Part shown: positions 4,582-10,898 of the stretch, piece after piece
Numbering within the stretch: position 1 is the first letter of the stretch
Layout of the letters: each line of letters begins with the position of its first letter
DNA from: a virus
Taxonomy: Duplodnaviria > Heunggongvirae > Uroviricota > Caudoviricetes
Direction: 5' to 3' (one strand)
IMG/VR virus record: IMGVR_UViG_2660238360_000005
Length of the DNA: 12,652 nt
The notes under the pieces: model-generated
The model's database searches: none
What the model saw: only the letters and a program-made list of their open reading frames with translations
What the model was told of the DNA's origin: nothing
Program-made: the position numbers and the translations under genes

Positions 4582-5148
4582 TATCGCGTCCTCAACAATG
4601 AATTTTGTGATGCAGTGCCTGGTGCCTCCAGGTGACGTTAACCAGTTAACAATTAACGCCGGATACAGAGAATCCACCCATAACACTGTTTTTGGTTTTA
4701 ACTGTTCCGCGTGCGCTCAGCCGCATTCACCACATCACAAAATTCACTTTAAAAAGGGCGGCAGAGCAGTCACGGAGTAAAACTGATACCGCCAAACGTC
4801 ACCAGAAAATTGATAACAGAGGGCGTTGCAGCGGGGTTGTCACTTAAGCGTATGGTCAACCTGACAACCCGGTGTCCTCAACGGGGAAGAAATAACCCCG
4901 CCATACTTACCGCCGCACCATTTCGCGGGTTGCCACAACCGGAAGCGCACGGTCGACGAAAATTTAACGACAGGCTATCTATGAACCAGCTACCTCGCCG
5001 TGCGCTTTCGCGTTATGGTCTGACTTTTCAGGGAAATATCCTTTCAGTAAACTGTCAGTGCCGGATGCTCACCCGTGTCCGGCGCACGCACTCCACCTCA
5101 CCCGTGGAGAACTCCTTAATTACCAACCTTAGCTTCGTTGGTTAGCTA

Positions 5149-5682: not shown

Positions 5683-5861
5683 GCTGACCTCATTTCCCCT
5701 TAACGCCGGGGTAGCGGAACAAAAACCTGCTGCATAGTTATTAAAGTTGAACCCTGCCGTCATGTTCTTACGCCTCGGGCTGGCTACTTAACCCCTGACC
5801 ACTGCCTGGTAACTCGAAGTATTGCCCTGCATTCTGTAGGATGGGGTGAGGGAATGAATGA

Positions 5862-5909
5862 AGTTTAGAAAGACGAACTTTCCAGGTCAATGTTTTTTTA
5901 TCAAAACAT
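5862..5909 (-). promoter_or_regulatory. Putative leftward early promoter with adjacent operator-like palindrome
   Basis: On the minus strand TTGACC (plus 5885-5890), 17-nt spacer, TAAACT (plus 5862-5867). Immediately upstream is the palindrome ATGTTTT-N6-AAAACAT (5890-5909), matching the GTTTT-N6-AAAAC motif of the cI-cro operators. Confidence 0.4.
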
Positions 5910-5974
5910 TTTAAGCAGGCAGCTGTTAAGCCATCACCACGATGGCATACAGTTAATCAAATAGATGAGGTTGG

Positions 5975-6613
5975 TTAAATATCTTGTTGAATTTTAAAGC
6001 ATACGCCCAATATGCAAGATAGATCATCCAGCATAATTGAAGGGTAGCGAGGATTCGTGGGGACTAAAAGAATATCCGGCCCTTCTATCTCCAGTTTACG
6101 AATGACAGGTGTTGTGGTCCCTTTGGGTAAGGCAAGGACAATATTTCCTGGTTGTACGGTTCGATCGGGATCAACAAAAACTGTTGAACCATTTGGGATG
6201 GAAACTCCCCCACCAGATGTTGACATACTGTCACTCTCTAGAACAACTGCAAAGGTATTGACCGGGATTTCTCCGACAAGCTGCACACAAGAGGTTATTG
6301 AGGAATTTTTCATATAATCACTCCAGCTTGCTGCCTGCTGAAGTGATAGTAGCGGAACCGTTTTTATCGGCGGTAAAGATAGATCAAGCGAATCACCTGT
6401 ATTTAACTCTCCTCCATTAAGAAGCCAATTTTCGTTTACTTTCAATATTTTTGCCAGTGAACTTATGTAACGCGAGGACGGCGCTCCTCCACCGTTCATC
6501 CATTGACTTACGGAGCCTTTTGATGCGCCAGTGCCATTGACAAGGTCTTTGCCTTTCAGGTTTAGCGCATGCATACGTTGGGTTATGCGTTCAGATATAG
6601 TTTGCTTGCTCAT
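5975..6613 (-). CDS. CI-type prophage repressor (N-terminal XRE-type HTH, C-terminal S24 LexA-like peptidase)
   Basis: 212 aa. HTH segment ..LKGKDLVNGTGASKGSVSQWMNG..; C-terminal ..ESDSMSTSGGGVSIPNGSTVFVDPD.. (Ser) and ..PVIRKLEIEGPDILLVP.. (Lys) fit the S24 Ser/Lys dyad. Divergent from the cro-like gene. No SD upstream of the ATG, compatible with a leaderless PRM-type transcript. Confidence 0.9.
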   Translation of the reverse strand: MSKQTISERITQRMHALNLKGKDLVNGTGASKGSVSQWMNGGGAPSSRYISSLAKILKVNENWLLNGGELNTGDSLDLSLPPIKTVPLLSLQQAASWSDYMKNSSITSCVQLVGEIPVNTFAVVLESDSMSTSGGGVSIPNGSTVFVDPDRTVQPGNIVLALPKGTTTPVIRKLEIEGPDILLVPTNPRYPSIMLDDLSCILGVCFKIQQDI

Positions 6614-6676
6614 GTTTTGATTTTAAAACACAGATGGTTTTGTTTCTTGACTTTCTTTGGTTTTGATTATTAAACT
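6614..6676. promoter_or_regulatory. Divergent promoter-operator region with three operator-like sites at 23-bp phasing
   Basis: GTTTTGATTTTAAAAC (6614-6629), GTTTTGTTTCTTGAC (6637-6651) and GTTTTGATTATTAAAC (6660-6675) start exactly 23 bp apart. Rightward promoter candidate TTGACT (6647-6652), 18-nt spacer, TAAACT (6671-6676). Confidence 0.55.
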
Positions 6677-6704
6677 TTTGACGTTCAGTTTTATGGAGCG
6701 ACTC

Positions 6705-6935
6705 ATGAAAAAATCAGAAGTATTAGGCTATTTTGGCGGAGTTGTTAAAACAGCCGCAGCTCTAGGAACGTCAAAAACCACAGTCAGCATGTGGGGGGAA
6801 GAGGTTCCGTGGAAATGGGCGTTGCTAATTCAGGCAGTCACTGCCGGGGCGCTCAAATATGAGTTACACATACCGACGGTTGTCATTCCCGGTTCTGATC
6901 ATAATCCGCCTTCTAACCAAGGGGGGGATTCATGA
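6705..6935 (+). CDS. Cro/YdaS-like HTH regulator (76 aa)
   Basis: ATG at 6705 with GGAG 7 nt upstream; HTH-like segment GGVVKTAAALGTSKTTVSMW; divergent from the repressor; stop overlaps the next start (ATGA at 6932-6935). Confidence 0.8.
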   Translation: MKKSEVLGYFGGVVKTAAALGTSKTTVSMWGEEVPWKWALLIQAVTAGALKYELHIPTVVIPGSDHNPPSNQGGDS

Positions 6936-9469: not shown

Positions 9470-9652
9470 ATGCGAAAGTTTAAAATAATTATTGAAACGG
9501 GAATAGCCGGTGGAGATTTCGAGGATGAATTCGAAGTGGATGATGATGCGACGCCTGATGAAATACATGACGAAGCAAAAGATATTTTCTTTAACTACTG
9601 CAATTACTCATATCACGAAATAAAAGACGAAGAGGAAGAACAAAATGGCTGA
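9470..9652 (+). CDS. Hypothetical strongly acidic small protein (60 aa)
   Basis: MRKFKIIIETGIAGGDFEDEFEVDDDATPDEIHDEAKDIFFNYCNYSYHEIKDEEEEQNG, about 22 acidic versus 6 basic residues. Stop overlaps the next start (ATGgcTGA). Confidence 0.55.
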   Translation: MRKFKIIIETGIAGGDFEDEFEVDDDATPDEIHDEAKDIFFNYCNYSYHEIKDEEEEQNG

Positions 9653-9821
9653 TTTTGGTTCAACTAAATACAACGTCAGTTTTGAAGAATGGCATGAACT
9701 GTTAATGGACTATGCAGAGTTACGTGGTGGCAGTGCTGCTGATGCTGAAGCATGGCGTGATGATTATGAAGCAGGAAAAACTCCGGTCGAAGCATATTGT
9801 GATGAGTGGGGCGATGAATGA
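9645..9821 (+). CDS. Hypothetical strongly acidic small protein (58 aa)
   Basis: Not in the ORF track. MADFGSTKYNVSFEEWHELLMDYAELRGGSAADAEAWRDDYEAGKTPVEAYCDEWGDE; coupled at both ends (start overlaps upstream stop; stop overlaps downstream ATG as ATGA at 9818-9821). Confidence 0.5.
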   Translation: MADFGSTKYNVSFEEWHELLMDYAELRGGSAADAEAWRDDYEAGKTPVEAYCDEWGDE

Positions 9822-10134
9822 GCGAGGTTAATTATCAGGAAGGGCATGAAACGGCGGGGCAAGCAAAAACAGTGGCATGGCGATATCGCTACGTGAAAAA
9901 AAAGGCGTTACGGACTTTCAGGGGAAGTAGTGGTCTGGTGACTGGAAATATGTACCGAAAAAAGAGGATTGTAACGACAGGCCGAACTATGAAATTCAGG
10001 CCTTATTCACTGCCCCGCCAGTCCCGGTTACATCAGAAGAACTGGTTAAAGCTGTGCACTTTTATGAACAACTAAAACGCGAAAATCCACCAGCATCCGG
10101 AAACCTGATTACAGATTCCCAGATAAGGCAATGA
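9818..10134 (+). CDS. ORF interrupted by a -1 frameshift (programmed frameshift candidate or disrupted gene)
   Basis: Frame A is open from ATG 9818. The -1 frame is open from 9931 to TGA 10132-10134 with no start codon and encodes a protein-like C-terminus (..PNYEIQALFTAPPVPVTSEELVKAVHFYEQLKRENPPASGNLITDSQIRQ). The frames are linked by an in-frame A_AAA_AAG heptamer (9958-9964). An A8 tract lies upstream (9896-9903). Confidence 0.35.
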
Positions 10135-10304
10135 GCTACCTGGCGCAGAACGGGCTGATAAGTATGGGGAATGTTTTACGATGAATATTTAGACTAAAGA
10201 GTTTGTAACGCTATGTAAGTGATTTTTTCTGGTTTAGATATTTATATGTCCGGCCAAATTGAGGTGTGTTTAAATGTAATTGCACATTGATTGTAGGAGG
10301 AATA

Positions 10305-10484
10305 ATGAAAAACGCATTGCAGTTTTTGTTTGTTGCGTTCTGGTTGTTCGTATCATGTATGCCCATCATCTTCACAGCAAGGTATATGGAAAAAGTTGAT
10401 GTTTTGATATTAATATTTGGATATATAAATGCCCTTTTTTTAGGGGTGTTCATGGCGGTCATGTGCATTGAATACTGGCGGTAA
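10305..10484 (+). CDS. Hypothetical small membrane peptide (59 aa, two predicted transmembrane helices)
   Basis: ATG at 10305 with AGGAGG 4 nt upstream; MKNALQFLFVAFWLFVSCMPIIFTARYMEKVDVLILIFGYINALFLGVFMAVMCIEYWR; conspicuously AT-rich relative to its neighbours; flanked by imperfect direct repeats. Confidence 0.5.
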   Translation: MKNALQFLFVAFWLFVSCMPIIFTARYMEKVDVLILIFGYINALFLGVFMAVMCIEYWR

Positions 10485-10567: not shown

Positions 10568-10624
10568 GACTGCGGGTGCTTGAGGCTATCTGTCTCAGGC
10601 ATGAACACCAAAAGGCAGATAGAG

Positions 10625-10692
10625 AAAAGCCCCAGTTAACATTACGCGTCCTGCAAGACGCTTAACATTAATCTGAGGCCATATCTATGCGA
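10625..10692 (-). ncRNA. sok: Putative Sok-like antisense RNA (boundaries approximate)
   Basis: Minus-strand promoter-like TTGACC (plus 10724-10729), 18-nt spacer, TAATCT (plus 10700-10705) inside the mok-like frame would start an antisense transcript near 10692 covering the mok-like start and leader, as in hok/sok loci. 3' end not defined. Confidence 0.3.
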
Positions 10693-10746
10693 CACATAGA
10701 GATTAGCCTCTTACGGACCGAAAGGTCAAGGAGAAGCAGGCTATGA
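10687..10746 (+). CDS. mok-like short coupling ORF (19 codons)
   Basis: ATG 10687; its TGA stop (10744-10746) overlaps the hok ATG (10743-10745). Much shorter than the mok frame as I recall it from plasmid R1, so the assignment is tentative. Confidence 0.35.
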   Translation: MRHIEISLLRTERSRRSRL

Positions 10747-10898
10747 AGCAGCAAAAGGCGATGTTAATCGCCCTGATCGTCATCTGTTTAACCGTCATAG
10801 TGACGGCACTGGTAACGAGGAAAGACCTCTGCGAGGTACGAATCCGAACCGGCCAGACGGAGGTCGCTGTCTTCACAGCTTACGAACCTGAGGAGTAA
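10743..10898 (+). CDS. hok: Hok/Gef-family type I toxin (51 aa)
   Basis: Not in the ORF track. MKQQKAMLIALIVICLTVIVTALVTRKDLCEVRIRTGQTEVAVFTAYEPEE has one transmembrane helix and the conserved Hok/Gef C-terminal region; AAGGAGAAG SD upstream. From memory it matches chromosomal HokD/RelF closely. Confidence 0.9.
   Translation: MKQQKAMLIALIVICLTVIVTALVTRKDLCEVRIRTGQTEVAVFTAYEPEE

What the first reader, a model, noticed from the sequence alone, without database searches (positions are those of the whole stretch)
9818..10134. In-frame A_AAA_AAG slippery heptamer joining two open frames
Frame A (from ATG 9818) and its -1 frame (9931-10134, no start codon) are both open across 9959-10075. The -1 frame encodes a well-composed C-terminus, whereas frame A downstream of the heptamer reads like off-frame text (RIVTTGRTMKFRPYSLPRQSRL..). 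The heptamer A_AAA_AAG at 9958-9964 sits in the zero frame exactly like the E. coli dnaX -1 frameshift site, and a 5-bp hairpin (AGGCC 9979-9983 / GGCCT 9999-10003) lies 15 nt downstream. Alternatively a 1-nt contraction in the A6 tract, real or a homopolymer sequencing error, gives the same picture.
Basis: partly seen in the sequence, partly recalled or inferred. Interest (0 to 1): 0.5.

Follow-up and report, generated by a model that had tools for sequence, protein, structure and literature searches.

The report
Decaying prophage pseudogene, not programmed frameshift
The two overlapping open frames are the wreck of a small prophage gene of unknown function, broken by a 2-base expansion of an upstream A-run and by a premature stop codon; the "slippery" heptamer is an incidental by-product, so this is ordinary.

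Summary
The described features are all at the stated coordinates, but the programmed-frameshift reading fails. Window 9818-10134 is the remnant of a lambdoid-prophage gene of family phrog_660 (function unknown). RefSeq already annotates the identical stretch as a pseudogene, "frameshifted; internal stop". Intact orthologues (104, 121 and 171 aa) read in one frame. Against them the window has three differences. (1) The upstream tract 9896-9903 is A8 where they have A6. This +2 insertion is where the frame really changes. (2) TAG at 9928-9930 stops the ancestral frame. (3) At 9958-9963 a C-to-A substitution (ACAAAA to AAAAAA) creates the heptamer with no change in length. Among 101 viral-collection alleles that carry the TAG, the first tract is A6 (44), A7 (13) or A8 (44). 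The frame relation that a -1 shift would need is therefore not conserved. There is no Shine-Dalgarno-like element upstream. The 5-bp hairpin lies 14 nt downstream and folds no better than shuffled sequence (z = -1.45). No Rfam family matches. The proposed shifted product would replace the family's conserved GDWKYVP core with off-frame residues. Relatives carry further lesions, including an IS insertion and deletions. Trace, non-functional slippage at the two A_AAA_AAG sites is likely but incidental.

The parts
9818..9904 (+). N-terminal remnant of the phrog_660-family gene, read in frame 0 (MSEVNYQEGHETAGQAKTVAWRYRYVKKK). Its ATG overlaps the upstream ORF's TGA (ATGA at 9818-9821).
   Evidence: Aligns codon for codon with intact orthologues L003, L004 and L005. 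Only aa 2-31 of the frame-A ORF match phrog_660.
9896..9903 (+). A8 homopolymer, a +2 insertion relative to the A6 (or AGAAAA, AAGAAA) of the intact orthologues. This is the true frame-break site.
   Evidence: Alignments A1 and A2. The tract is polymorphic among TAG-lineage alleles in IMG/VR: A6 n=44, A7 n=13, A8 n=44. A7 also occurs in RefSeq genomes L086 and L087.
9898..9904 (+). A first A_AAA_AAG heptamer, also in frame 0 and created by the A8 expansion. A -1 slip here enters the ancestral frame but meets the TAG eight codons later.
   Evidence: Sequence and translations; pattern search.
9877..9930 (+). Short ORF in the -1 frame (MAISLREKKGVTDFQGK*). In A8 alleles with TGG in place of TAG, gene callers extend this ORF to a 152-aa protein (P0030).
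9928..9930 (+). Premature TAG in the ancestral reading frame. Orthologues have CCG, CTG, ATG, CAG or TGG at this codon.
   Evidence: PGAP note 'internal stop'.
9931..10134 (+). C-terminal remnant in the ancestral (-1) frame: WSGDWKYVPKKEDCNDRPNYEIQALF...SQIRQ*. It is open because it was coding sequence.
   Evidence: Same length as the corresponding part of the intact 104-aa protein WP_001529162.1 and differs from it at a few residues, by inspection (annotation).
9958..9964 (+). It comes from a C-to-A substitution (ACA Thr to AAA Lys in the ancestral frame) with no length change.
   Evidence: It was AAAAAA in every TAG-lineage allele where the site is still present (100 of 101), whatever the length of the first tract.
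9979..10003 (+). Weak hairpin (5-bp core, extended by the fold to 8 pairs with a one-base bulge) 14 nt downstream of the heptamer. It lies in sequence encoding the conserved DRPNYEIQAL.
   Evidence: MFE -8.8 kcal/mol, z = -1.45, 17 of 200 shuffles as good. The stem is broken (AGTCC) in the A8 allele L090.
10084..10100 (+). Deletion junction(s) relative to the 171-aa long form, at the repeated AATCCRCCAG / CATCCGG motifs.
   Evidence: Alignments A1 and A2.
10101..10184 (+). Remnant of the long-form C-terminus (KPDYRFPDKAMSYLAQNGLISMGNVLR*), now stranded in the third frame.
   Evidence: One search compared with LPDKAMDYLKRNGLINEENILR* of L004. PGAP extends the pseudogene to this stop in A7 alleles.

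Best explanation
Window 9818-10184 is a multiply disrupted pseudogene. The parent is a small lambdoid-prophage early-region gene of family phrog_660, function unknown. It sits between the DUF7167 gene cluster and the hok/sok module of a Qin/Rac-like E. coli prophage.

Shown:
- Intact orthologues read in one frame.
- The window carries a +2 expansion of the A-tract at 9896-9903 (A6 to A8). This moves the rest of the gene into the -1 frame.
- A TAG at 9928-9930 stops that ancestral frame.
- C-terminal deletions leave the last 27 ancestral codons in the third frame.
- Translation from ATG 9818 yields an 85-aa product with 29 native residues followed by 56 off-frame residues.
- The heptamer at 9958-9964 is a Thr-to-Lys substitution in the ancestral frame. 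It happens to fall in register with frame 0 only in A8 alleles.

Inferred:
- The gene was inactivated, most simply by a CAG-to-TAG or TGG-to-TAG nonsense change.
- The hypermutable A-tract has since drifted between 6, 7 and 8 without selection on frame.
- Both A_AAA_AAG sites probably allow low-level spontaneous -1 slippage, well under 1%, as such motifs do without stimulators. The resulting products are by-products, not a programmed output.
For: - RefSeq/PGAP annotates exactly this interval as a pseudogene, 'frameshifted; internal stop', in every window-type record inspected.
- Intact single-frame orthologues exist: 104 aa, 171 aa and 121 aa. The alignment localises the lesions.
- Family assignment: the 171-aa form hits phrog_660 at 6.5e-72 end to end. 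The window's 85-aa ORF hits only with aa 2-31, at E = 0.006.
- The first tract is A6/A7/A8 = 44/13/44 among 101 TAG-lineage alleles, while the second tract is invariant in the 100 alleles that still carry it. A7 occurs on at least two haplotypes that share other SNPs with RefSeq complete genomes, so it is real variation.
- Relatives carry other lesions in the same gene: an IS insertion (L128), a deletion or rearrangement (L094), and a 4-nt deletion plus extra stops (L002).
- No stimulatory signals were found.
- Polymorphism counts in the region downstream of the TAG lean toward relaxed constraint: 11 non-synonymous to 6 synonymous, against 25 to 30 in non-TAG alleles.
- Heptamers without stimulators give only 2- to 10-fold over a background of about 0.055% in E. 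coli (PMC4066793).
Against: - The A8+TAG allele is very common. About a third of the 1769 matching E. coli records are at least 99% identical over the 317 bases. This could be read as maintenance, but it is equally explained by the spread of one prophage lineage.
- The relaxed-selection trend is not significant (Fisher p = 0.27).
- In A8 alleles the arithmetic of a -1 shift at 9958-9964 does restore the ancestral C-terminus and does bypass the TAG. That coincidence has roughly a 1% chance for this exact heptamer.
- No expression data were available.
Confidence: 0.9

Rival explanations
1. Programmed -1 ribosomal frameshifting at A_AAA_AAG 9958-9964. Ribosomes stay in frame 0 past the TAG, slip -1 on the two Lys codons, and make a 105-aa protein that carries the ancestral C-terminus.
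For: The heptamer is in register with frame 0 and both frames are open. A_AAA_AAG is among the most shift-prone heptamers in E. coli (PMC4066793). The arithmetic restores the ancestral frame downstream of the stop.
Against: - The heptamer predates the A8 frame and is independent of it: it is also present in A6 and A7 alleles, where it is out of register.
- There is no SD-like element within 20 nt upstream.
- The hairpin is 14 nt away, no more stable than shuffles, and broken in L090.
- There is no Rfam frameshift-element match.
- The product would replace residues 29-48, including the GDWKYVP motif present in 16 of the 17 aligned relatives, with off-frame sequence.
- Intact orthologues need no shift.
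Confidence: 0.02
2. The A-tract at 9896-9903 is a contingency (phase-variable) or slippage-rescue site. Length changes in DNA, transcriptional slippage on A8, or a -1 ribosomal slip at the first A_AAA_AAG (9898-9904) would switch or leak expression of the downstream frame.
For: Tract length is polymorphic (A6/A7/A8) among near-identical alleles. In Shigella dysenteriae-type alleles (A8 with TGG in place of TAG) the whole long-form C-terminus remains intact in the -1 frame. A slip at the first heptamer there would give a full-length protein with one extra Lys.
Against: - In this window the TAG eight codons downstream makes any such rescue futile.
- All A8+TGG alleles found are essentially one haplotype, so intactness may simply reflect recency.
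- A8 is below the run length of 9 or more at which bacterial RNA polymerase slippage is known to be efficient (established knowledge, not tested here).
- There are no stimulators.
Confidence: 0.05
3. The 85-aa frame-0 ORF (9818-10075) is itself a new functional protein born from the frameshift.
For: It has a start codon coupled to the upstream ORF (ATGA overlap) and is open for 85 codons. The allele is abundant.
Against: - Only its first ~30 residues have any homologue.
- The remainder is the off-frame reading of a conserved coding sequence.
- Sister alleles with A7 or A6 destroy this ORF.
- PGAP treats it as a pseudogene.
Confidence: 0.02
4. Sequencing or assembly error in a homopolymer.
For: Two A-runs of 6 or more lie in the region. 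A7 variants could in principle be errors.
Against: The exact 901-base stretch including A8 is found at 100% identity in all 30 listed complete genomes from different laboratories and platforms. A7 alleles share linked SNPs across independent records. The TAG is a substitution, not a homopolymer artefact.
Confidence: 0.01

Closest known systems
PGAP-annotated frameshifted pseudogenes of accessory genes in cryptic lambdoid prophages of E. coli (Qin/Rac-like, early region between the replication genes and hok/sok)
   Same: The same locus is annotated as a pseudogene, 'frameshifted; internal stop', in RefSeq. There are multiple independent lesions, a homopolymer indel, intact orthologues elsewhere, and IS hits in relatives.
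   Different: Nothing substantive. This is an instance of that kind.
phrog_660 (phage protein family of unknown function), e.g. WP_028985605.1 (171 aa) and WP_001529162.1 (104 aa)
   Same: The N-terminal 29 codons (frame 0), the middle part (frame -1) and the last 27 codons (third frame) are all recognisably this gene.
   Different: The window copy has no intact reading frame. The family itself is mosaic, with lengths of 104-229 aa and swapped N- and C-terminal modules.
E. coli dnaX -1 programmed frameshift cassette (A_AAA_AAG, upstream SD, downstream stem-loop)
   Same: Identical heptamer, read in the same register in frame 0.
   Different: There is no upstream SD-like element. The downstream hairpin is weak and 14 nt away, whereas signal distances are critical in dnaX (PMC5389563). 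There is no conservation of the two-frame arrangement, and no Rfam hit.
Spontaneous, unprogrammed frameshifting at shift-prone heptamers in E. coli genes (Sharma et al. 2014, PMC4066793)
   Same: A_AAA_AAG without stimulators is expected to give low-level -1 slippage, a few-fold over a background of about 0.05%. This probably happens at both 9898-9904 and 9958-9964.
   Different: That phenomenon is a translational error rate, not a gene-expression device. Here it acts on an already dead gene.

Membership tests
dnaX-type programmed -1 ribosomal frameshift site | X_XXY_YYZ slippery heptamer in register with the zero frame | tested here: met
   cgA AAA AAG at 9958-9964 in the frame of ATG 9818. 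A second such heptamer lies at 9898-9904.
dnaX-type programmed -1 ribosomal frameshift site | Shine-Dalgarno-like stimulator about 10 nt upstream of the heptamer | tested here: not met
   9938-9957 is GTGACTGGAAATATGTACCG, with no GGAG, GAGG or AGGA. The nearest SD-like string, AGGGGA at 9920-9925, is more than 30 nt upstream. The dnaX signal set is described in PMC5389563.
dnaX-type programmed -1 ribosomal frameshift site | Stable stem-loop or pseudoknot positioned a few nt (about 5-8) downstream, at the mRNA entrance | tested here: not met
   The only structure starts 14 nt downstream. Its MFE is -8.8 kcal/mol, z = -1.45, and 17 of 200 shuffles fold at least as well. Longer contexts give z of about 0. 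The stem is mutated in L090.
dnaX-type programmed -1 ribosomal frameshift site | Heptamer and two-frame architecture conserved among orthologues | tested here: not met
   Intact orthologues are single-frame with ACAAAA at this position. Among TAG-lineage alleles the upstream frame varies, with A6/A7/A8 = 44/13/44.
dnaX-type programmed -1 ribosomal frameshift site | Trans-frame protein actually made at a useful level | not testable with these tools
   This needs a reporter assay or mass spectrometry.
Pseudogene (decayed copy of a phrog_660 gene) | Intact, single-frame orthologues exist | tested here: met
   L003 104 aa, L004 171 aa, L005 121 aa. 1564 database homologues.
Pseudogene (decayed copy of a phrog_660 gene) | Frame-disrupting indel and/or premature stop relative to those orthologues | tested here: met
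   +2 in the A-tract at 9896-9903, TAG at 9928-9930, and C-terminal deletions.
Pseudogene (decayed copy of a phrog_660 gene) | Different, additional lesions in close relatives (no selection for integrity) | tested here: met
   A6/A7/A8 variation, an IS insertion in L128, a deletion in L094, and a 4-nt deletion plus stops in L002.
Pseudogene (decayed copy of a phrog_660 gene) | Relaxed purifying selection on the remnant | tested here: inconclusive
   11 non-synonymous to 6 synonymous against 25 to 30 in non-TAG alleles, Fisher p = 0.27. There are too few substitutions.
phrog_660 | Significant full-length profile match | tested here: not met
   The intact 171-aa orthologue matches at 6.5e-72 over profile positions 34-193. 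The window's only ORF matches at E = 0.006 over 30 residues. The window copy is a remnant, not a member protein.
Transcriptional-slippage / contingency homopolymer site | Homopolymer long enough for efficient RNA polymerase slippage (9 or more A/T in known bacterial cases) with a productive downstream frame | tested here: not met
   The tract is A8, and the downstream frame ends at the TAG after 8 codons. The run-length criterion comes from established knowledge and was not tested here.

The most novel reading that the evidence does not exclude
The most novel reading not excluded concerns the A8 lineage of this prophage gene. Shift-prone A_AAA_AAG sites might provide a biologically used leak. 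One route would be at 9958-9964, giving a hybrid protein that bypasses the TAG. A less unlikely route is at the first heptamer in the sister A8+TGG alleles (Shigella dysenteriae type), where a -1 slip or slippage on A8 would restore a full-length phrog_660 protein. That would be a 'saviour' frameshift tolerated in a frameshifted prophage gene.
Probability: 0.04. Interest if true: 0.35.

Novelty: already known. Interest (0 to 1): 0.07.

Why it matters
It matters mainly as a negative result. An in-register A_AAA_AAG between two open frames looks like recoding. Comparison with orthologues shows instead an ordinary decaying prophage gene that public annotation already flags as a pseudogene. The case shows why candidate frameshift sites must be checked against intact orthologues and allele variation before any mechanism is proposed. 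Had the frameshift been real, it would only have added one more small phage protein of unknown function to the list of -1 PRF genes.

Tried and rejected
- Programmed -1 PRF at 9958-9964. Rejected on comparative grounds and for lack of stimulators.
Rejected: that tract has the orthologous length, and the indel is +2 in the other tract.
- Sequencing error. Rejected: identical sequence in all 30 listed complete genomes.
- Known RNA element. Rfam found nothing in 9780-10200 even at E up to 10.
- Function of the parent gene. Pfam gave nothing above threshold: AphA_like at 14.7 bits against a cut-off of 27. PHROGs gave only "unknown function". No structure prediction was run, because it would not bear on the question.
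- Test for relaxed selection by counting polymorphisms. The trend runs in the expected direction but is not significant.
- Enrichment of the heptamer in the window. None: 5 observed against 4.24 expected.
- I did not count all 1769 E. coli records allele by allele. Allele proportions rest on the 60-row spread sample and on 101 IMG/VR contigs.

Full report
**What is in the sequence.**
- The window is the early region of a lambdoid (Qin/Rac-like) E. coli prophage.
  - Integrase, excisionase and an exonuclease lie on the minus strand, together with DicF RNA at 4756-4807.
  - The immunity region has an S24-peptidase/HTH repressor at 5975-6613(-), a P22-Cro-like gene and a YdaT-like gene.
  - Downstream come a DUF977 gene, a DUF7167 gene at 9470-9652, a 58-aa ORF at 9645-9821, the region in question, the sok/hokD module at 10574-10898, and a DUF968 gene.
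- The literal observation holds.
  - ATG 9818 opens an 85-codon frame that ends at TAA 10073-10075.
  - The -1 frame is open from 9931 to TGA 10132-10134.
  - AAAAAAG at 9958-9964 is read cgA AAA AAG in the frame of ATG 9818.
  - AGGCC 9979-9983 can pair with GGCCT 9999-10003.

**What it is.**
- A 901-base stretch around the site recurs at 100% identity in all 30 listed complete E. coli genomes. It matches 2686 records in all.
- In the RefSeq records inspected, the interval equivalent to 9818-10134 is annotated as a pseudogene, "frameshifted; internal stop". The A7 variants are annotated the same way but extended to the next stop.
- Intact orthologues exist in other prophages:
  - a 104-aa protein, WP_001529162.1 (L003);
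  - a 171-aa protein, WP_028985605.1 (L004);
  - a 121-aa protein (L005).
- The 171-aa form matches PHROG family phrog_660 (unknown function) end to end at E = 6.5e-72. The window's 85-aa ORF matches only through residues 2-31, at E = 0.006.
- Pfam has no model for the family.
- The protein database holds 1564 homologues, all "hypothetical" and of mosaic architecture.

**Where the frame really breaks.** The nucleotide alignment (refined) shows three differences from the intact genes.
1. The tract at 9896-9903 is A8 where every intact orthologue has six bases (AAAAAA, AGAAAA or AAGAAA). This +2 insertion moves the rest of the ancestral gene into the -1 frame. The -1 translation accordingly reads ...KKGVTDFQGK*WSGDWKYVPKKEDCNDRPNYEIQALF..., collinear with the orthologous KKGVTDFQENLWVGDWKYVPTKEDCNDRPNYEIQALF.
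2. The codon at 9928-9930 is TAG. Orthologues have CCG, CTG, ATG, CAG or TGG. This is PGAP's "internal stop", and it is the only reason the -1 frame appears to start at 9931.
3. At 9958-9963 the orthologues have ACAAAA (Thr-Lys) and the window has AAAAAA (Lys-Lys). This is a substitution with no length change. Frame A is already off-frame for 18 codons before it reaches the heptamer.

Further downstream, deletions at repeated AATCCRCCAG/CATCCGG motifs (about 10084-10100) removed part of the long form. They left its last 27 codons (KPDYRFPDKAMSYLAQNGLISMGNVLR*) in the third frame at 10101-10184. The remnant thus uses all three frames.

**Is the two-frame arrangement conserved?** No.
- I scanned IMG/VR for alleles carrying the TAG and found 101 contigs. 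The first tract is A6 in 44, A7 in 13 and A8 in 44. The second tract is AAAAAA in all 100 that still contain it.
- A7 alleles fall on at least two haplotypes marked by linked SNPs. The same haplotypes are present in RefSeq complete genomes (L086, L087), so they are real variants and not read errors.
- A -1 shift at 9958-9964 would restore the ancestral frame only in A8 alleles. In A6 and A7 alleles the same heptamer is out of register.
- Other copies of the gene carry an IS insertion (L128), a deletion or rearrangement (L094), or a 4-nt deletion and further stops (L002).
- In the spread sample of E. coli genomes, roughly a third of hits are window-type, a little under a third are the L002-type pseudogene, and about a quarter are intact forms.
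- Polymorphisms downstream of the TAG number 11 non-synonymous to 6 synonymous in the TAG lineage, against 25 to 30 in other alleles. This is the direction expected for relaxed constraint, but it is not significant (p = 0.27).

**Are there frameshift stimulators?** No.
- dnaX uses three signals at critical distances: the heptamer, an upstream SD and a downstream hairpin (PMC5389563).
- Here the 20 nt upstream of either heptamer hold no SD-like string.
- The hairpin starts 14 nt downstream. It has an MFE of -8.8 kcal/mol, z = -1.45, and 17 of 200 shuffles fold as well. Longer contexts give z of about 0.
- The hairpin is part of the conserved DRPNYEIQAL coding sequence in intact orthologues, and it is disrupted in an A8 allele, L090.
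- Rfam finds nothing in 9780-10200 at E up to 10.
- The heptamer is no more frequent in the window than expected, 5 against 4.24.
- Without stimulators, heptamers give only 2- to 10-fold over a background of about 0.055% in E. coli (PMC4066793).

**What would the proposed product be?** It would be MSEVNYQ...YRYVKKK-ALRTFRGSSGLVTGNMYRKK-EDCNDRP.... Residues 29-48 would be off-frame and would replace GVTDFQ..W.GDWKYVP, whose GDWKYVP stretch is present in 16 of the 17 aligned relatives. That makes a functional hybrid unlikely.

**Mechanism, as best supported.**
- Shown: translation initiates at ATG 9818, coupled to the upstream ORF through the ATGA overlap. It reads 29 native codons, runs through the A8 tract out of the ancestral frame, and terminates at 10075. 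The result is an 85-aa product that is mostly nonsense.
- Inferred: the gene was killed by a nonsense mutation and/or the tract expansion, and the A-tract then drifted.
- Inferred: a small fraction of ribosomes probably slip -1 at 9898-9904, hitting the TAG eight codons later, and at 9958-9964. This would be translational noise.
- Confidence that this is a pseudogene with an incidental heptamer is about 0.9.

**A related observation.**
- Sister alleles with TGG in place of TAG were found only with A8. They comprise three IMG/VR contigs and the Shigella dysenteriae chromosomes.
- There the entire long-form C-terminus is intact in the -1 frame. Gene callers report a 152-aa ORF from the ATG equivalent to 9877 (P0030).
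- In those alleles a -1 slip at the first A_AAA_AAG would regenerate a full-length protein with one extra lysine.
- All such alleles are essentially one haplotype, so this is most simply a recent frameshift mutation. It is nevertheless the only place in this family where leaky rescue is even arithmetically productive.

**Verdict.** The coordinates are right, but the programmed-frameshift interpretation is not supported. The feature is an ordinary pseudogene that is already annotated as such.

Noticed in passing
L192 601-1059 (Shigella dysenteriae CP026836); also L193-L197: A sister allele has A8 with TGG in place of TAG. The whole 171-aa-type C-terminus is intact in the -1 frame, and gene callers report a 152-aa ORF (P0030, 54 contigs) starting at the ATG equivalent to window 9877. 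A -1 slip at the first A_AAA_AAG would restore a full-length protein with one extra Lys. TGG alleles were found only with A8.
   Followed up: partly
window 10101-10184: The last 27 codons of the long-form protein (KPDYRFPDKAMSYLAQNGLISMGNVLR*) survive in the third frame. This means the 'intact' 104-aa orthologue (WP_001529162.1) is itself a C-terminally deleted, frame-switched derivative of the 171-aa form.
   Followed up: partly
window 4756-4807 (-) and 10574-10745 (+): Rfam finds DicF sRNA (76.7 bits) and the sok antitoxin RNA (106.7 bits). The sok RNA lies just upstream of, and overlaps, the hokD-like ORF at 10743-10898. Both are typical of Qin-like cryptic prophages.
   Followed up: no
window 10305-10484 (+): A 59-aa, very hydrophobic ORF (MKNALQFLFVAFWLF...) with a good GGAGG ribosome-binding site. 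It has no Pfam hit. The corresponding stretch of NZ_CP015834 (between the pseudogene and hokD) carries no annotated CDS. An 85-aa ORF overlaps it on the opposite strand (10211-10468).
   Followed up: no
window 5849-6926: The immunity region (S24/HTH repressor at 5975-6613(-), start of the P22-Cro-like gene at 6657-6935) has no counterpart in the otherwise ~97% identical prophage of strain MS6198 (L001). This is a mosaic swap of the immunity module.
   Followed up: no
L128 and L094 (IMG/VR contigs): In L128 the same gene is interrupted, after the position equivalent to 9993, by an element resembling an IS3-family IS (identified by eye from the inverted-repeat-like end TGACCTGCTCCCC... and an ORF starting MKKRFSDEQIISILREAEA; not searched). 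In L094 the homology ends after about 9936, indicating a deletion or rearrangement.
   Followed up: partly
proteins P0044, P0075, P0083, P0096: The conserved core (AWRYRYVKKGVTD...GDWKYVPTKEDCNDRPNYEIQALF...) is found fused to different N-terminal modules (ead/Ea22-like PF13935) and C-terminal modules (DUF551 PF04448). The family is a shuffled module rather than a fixed gene.
   Followed up: no
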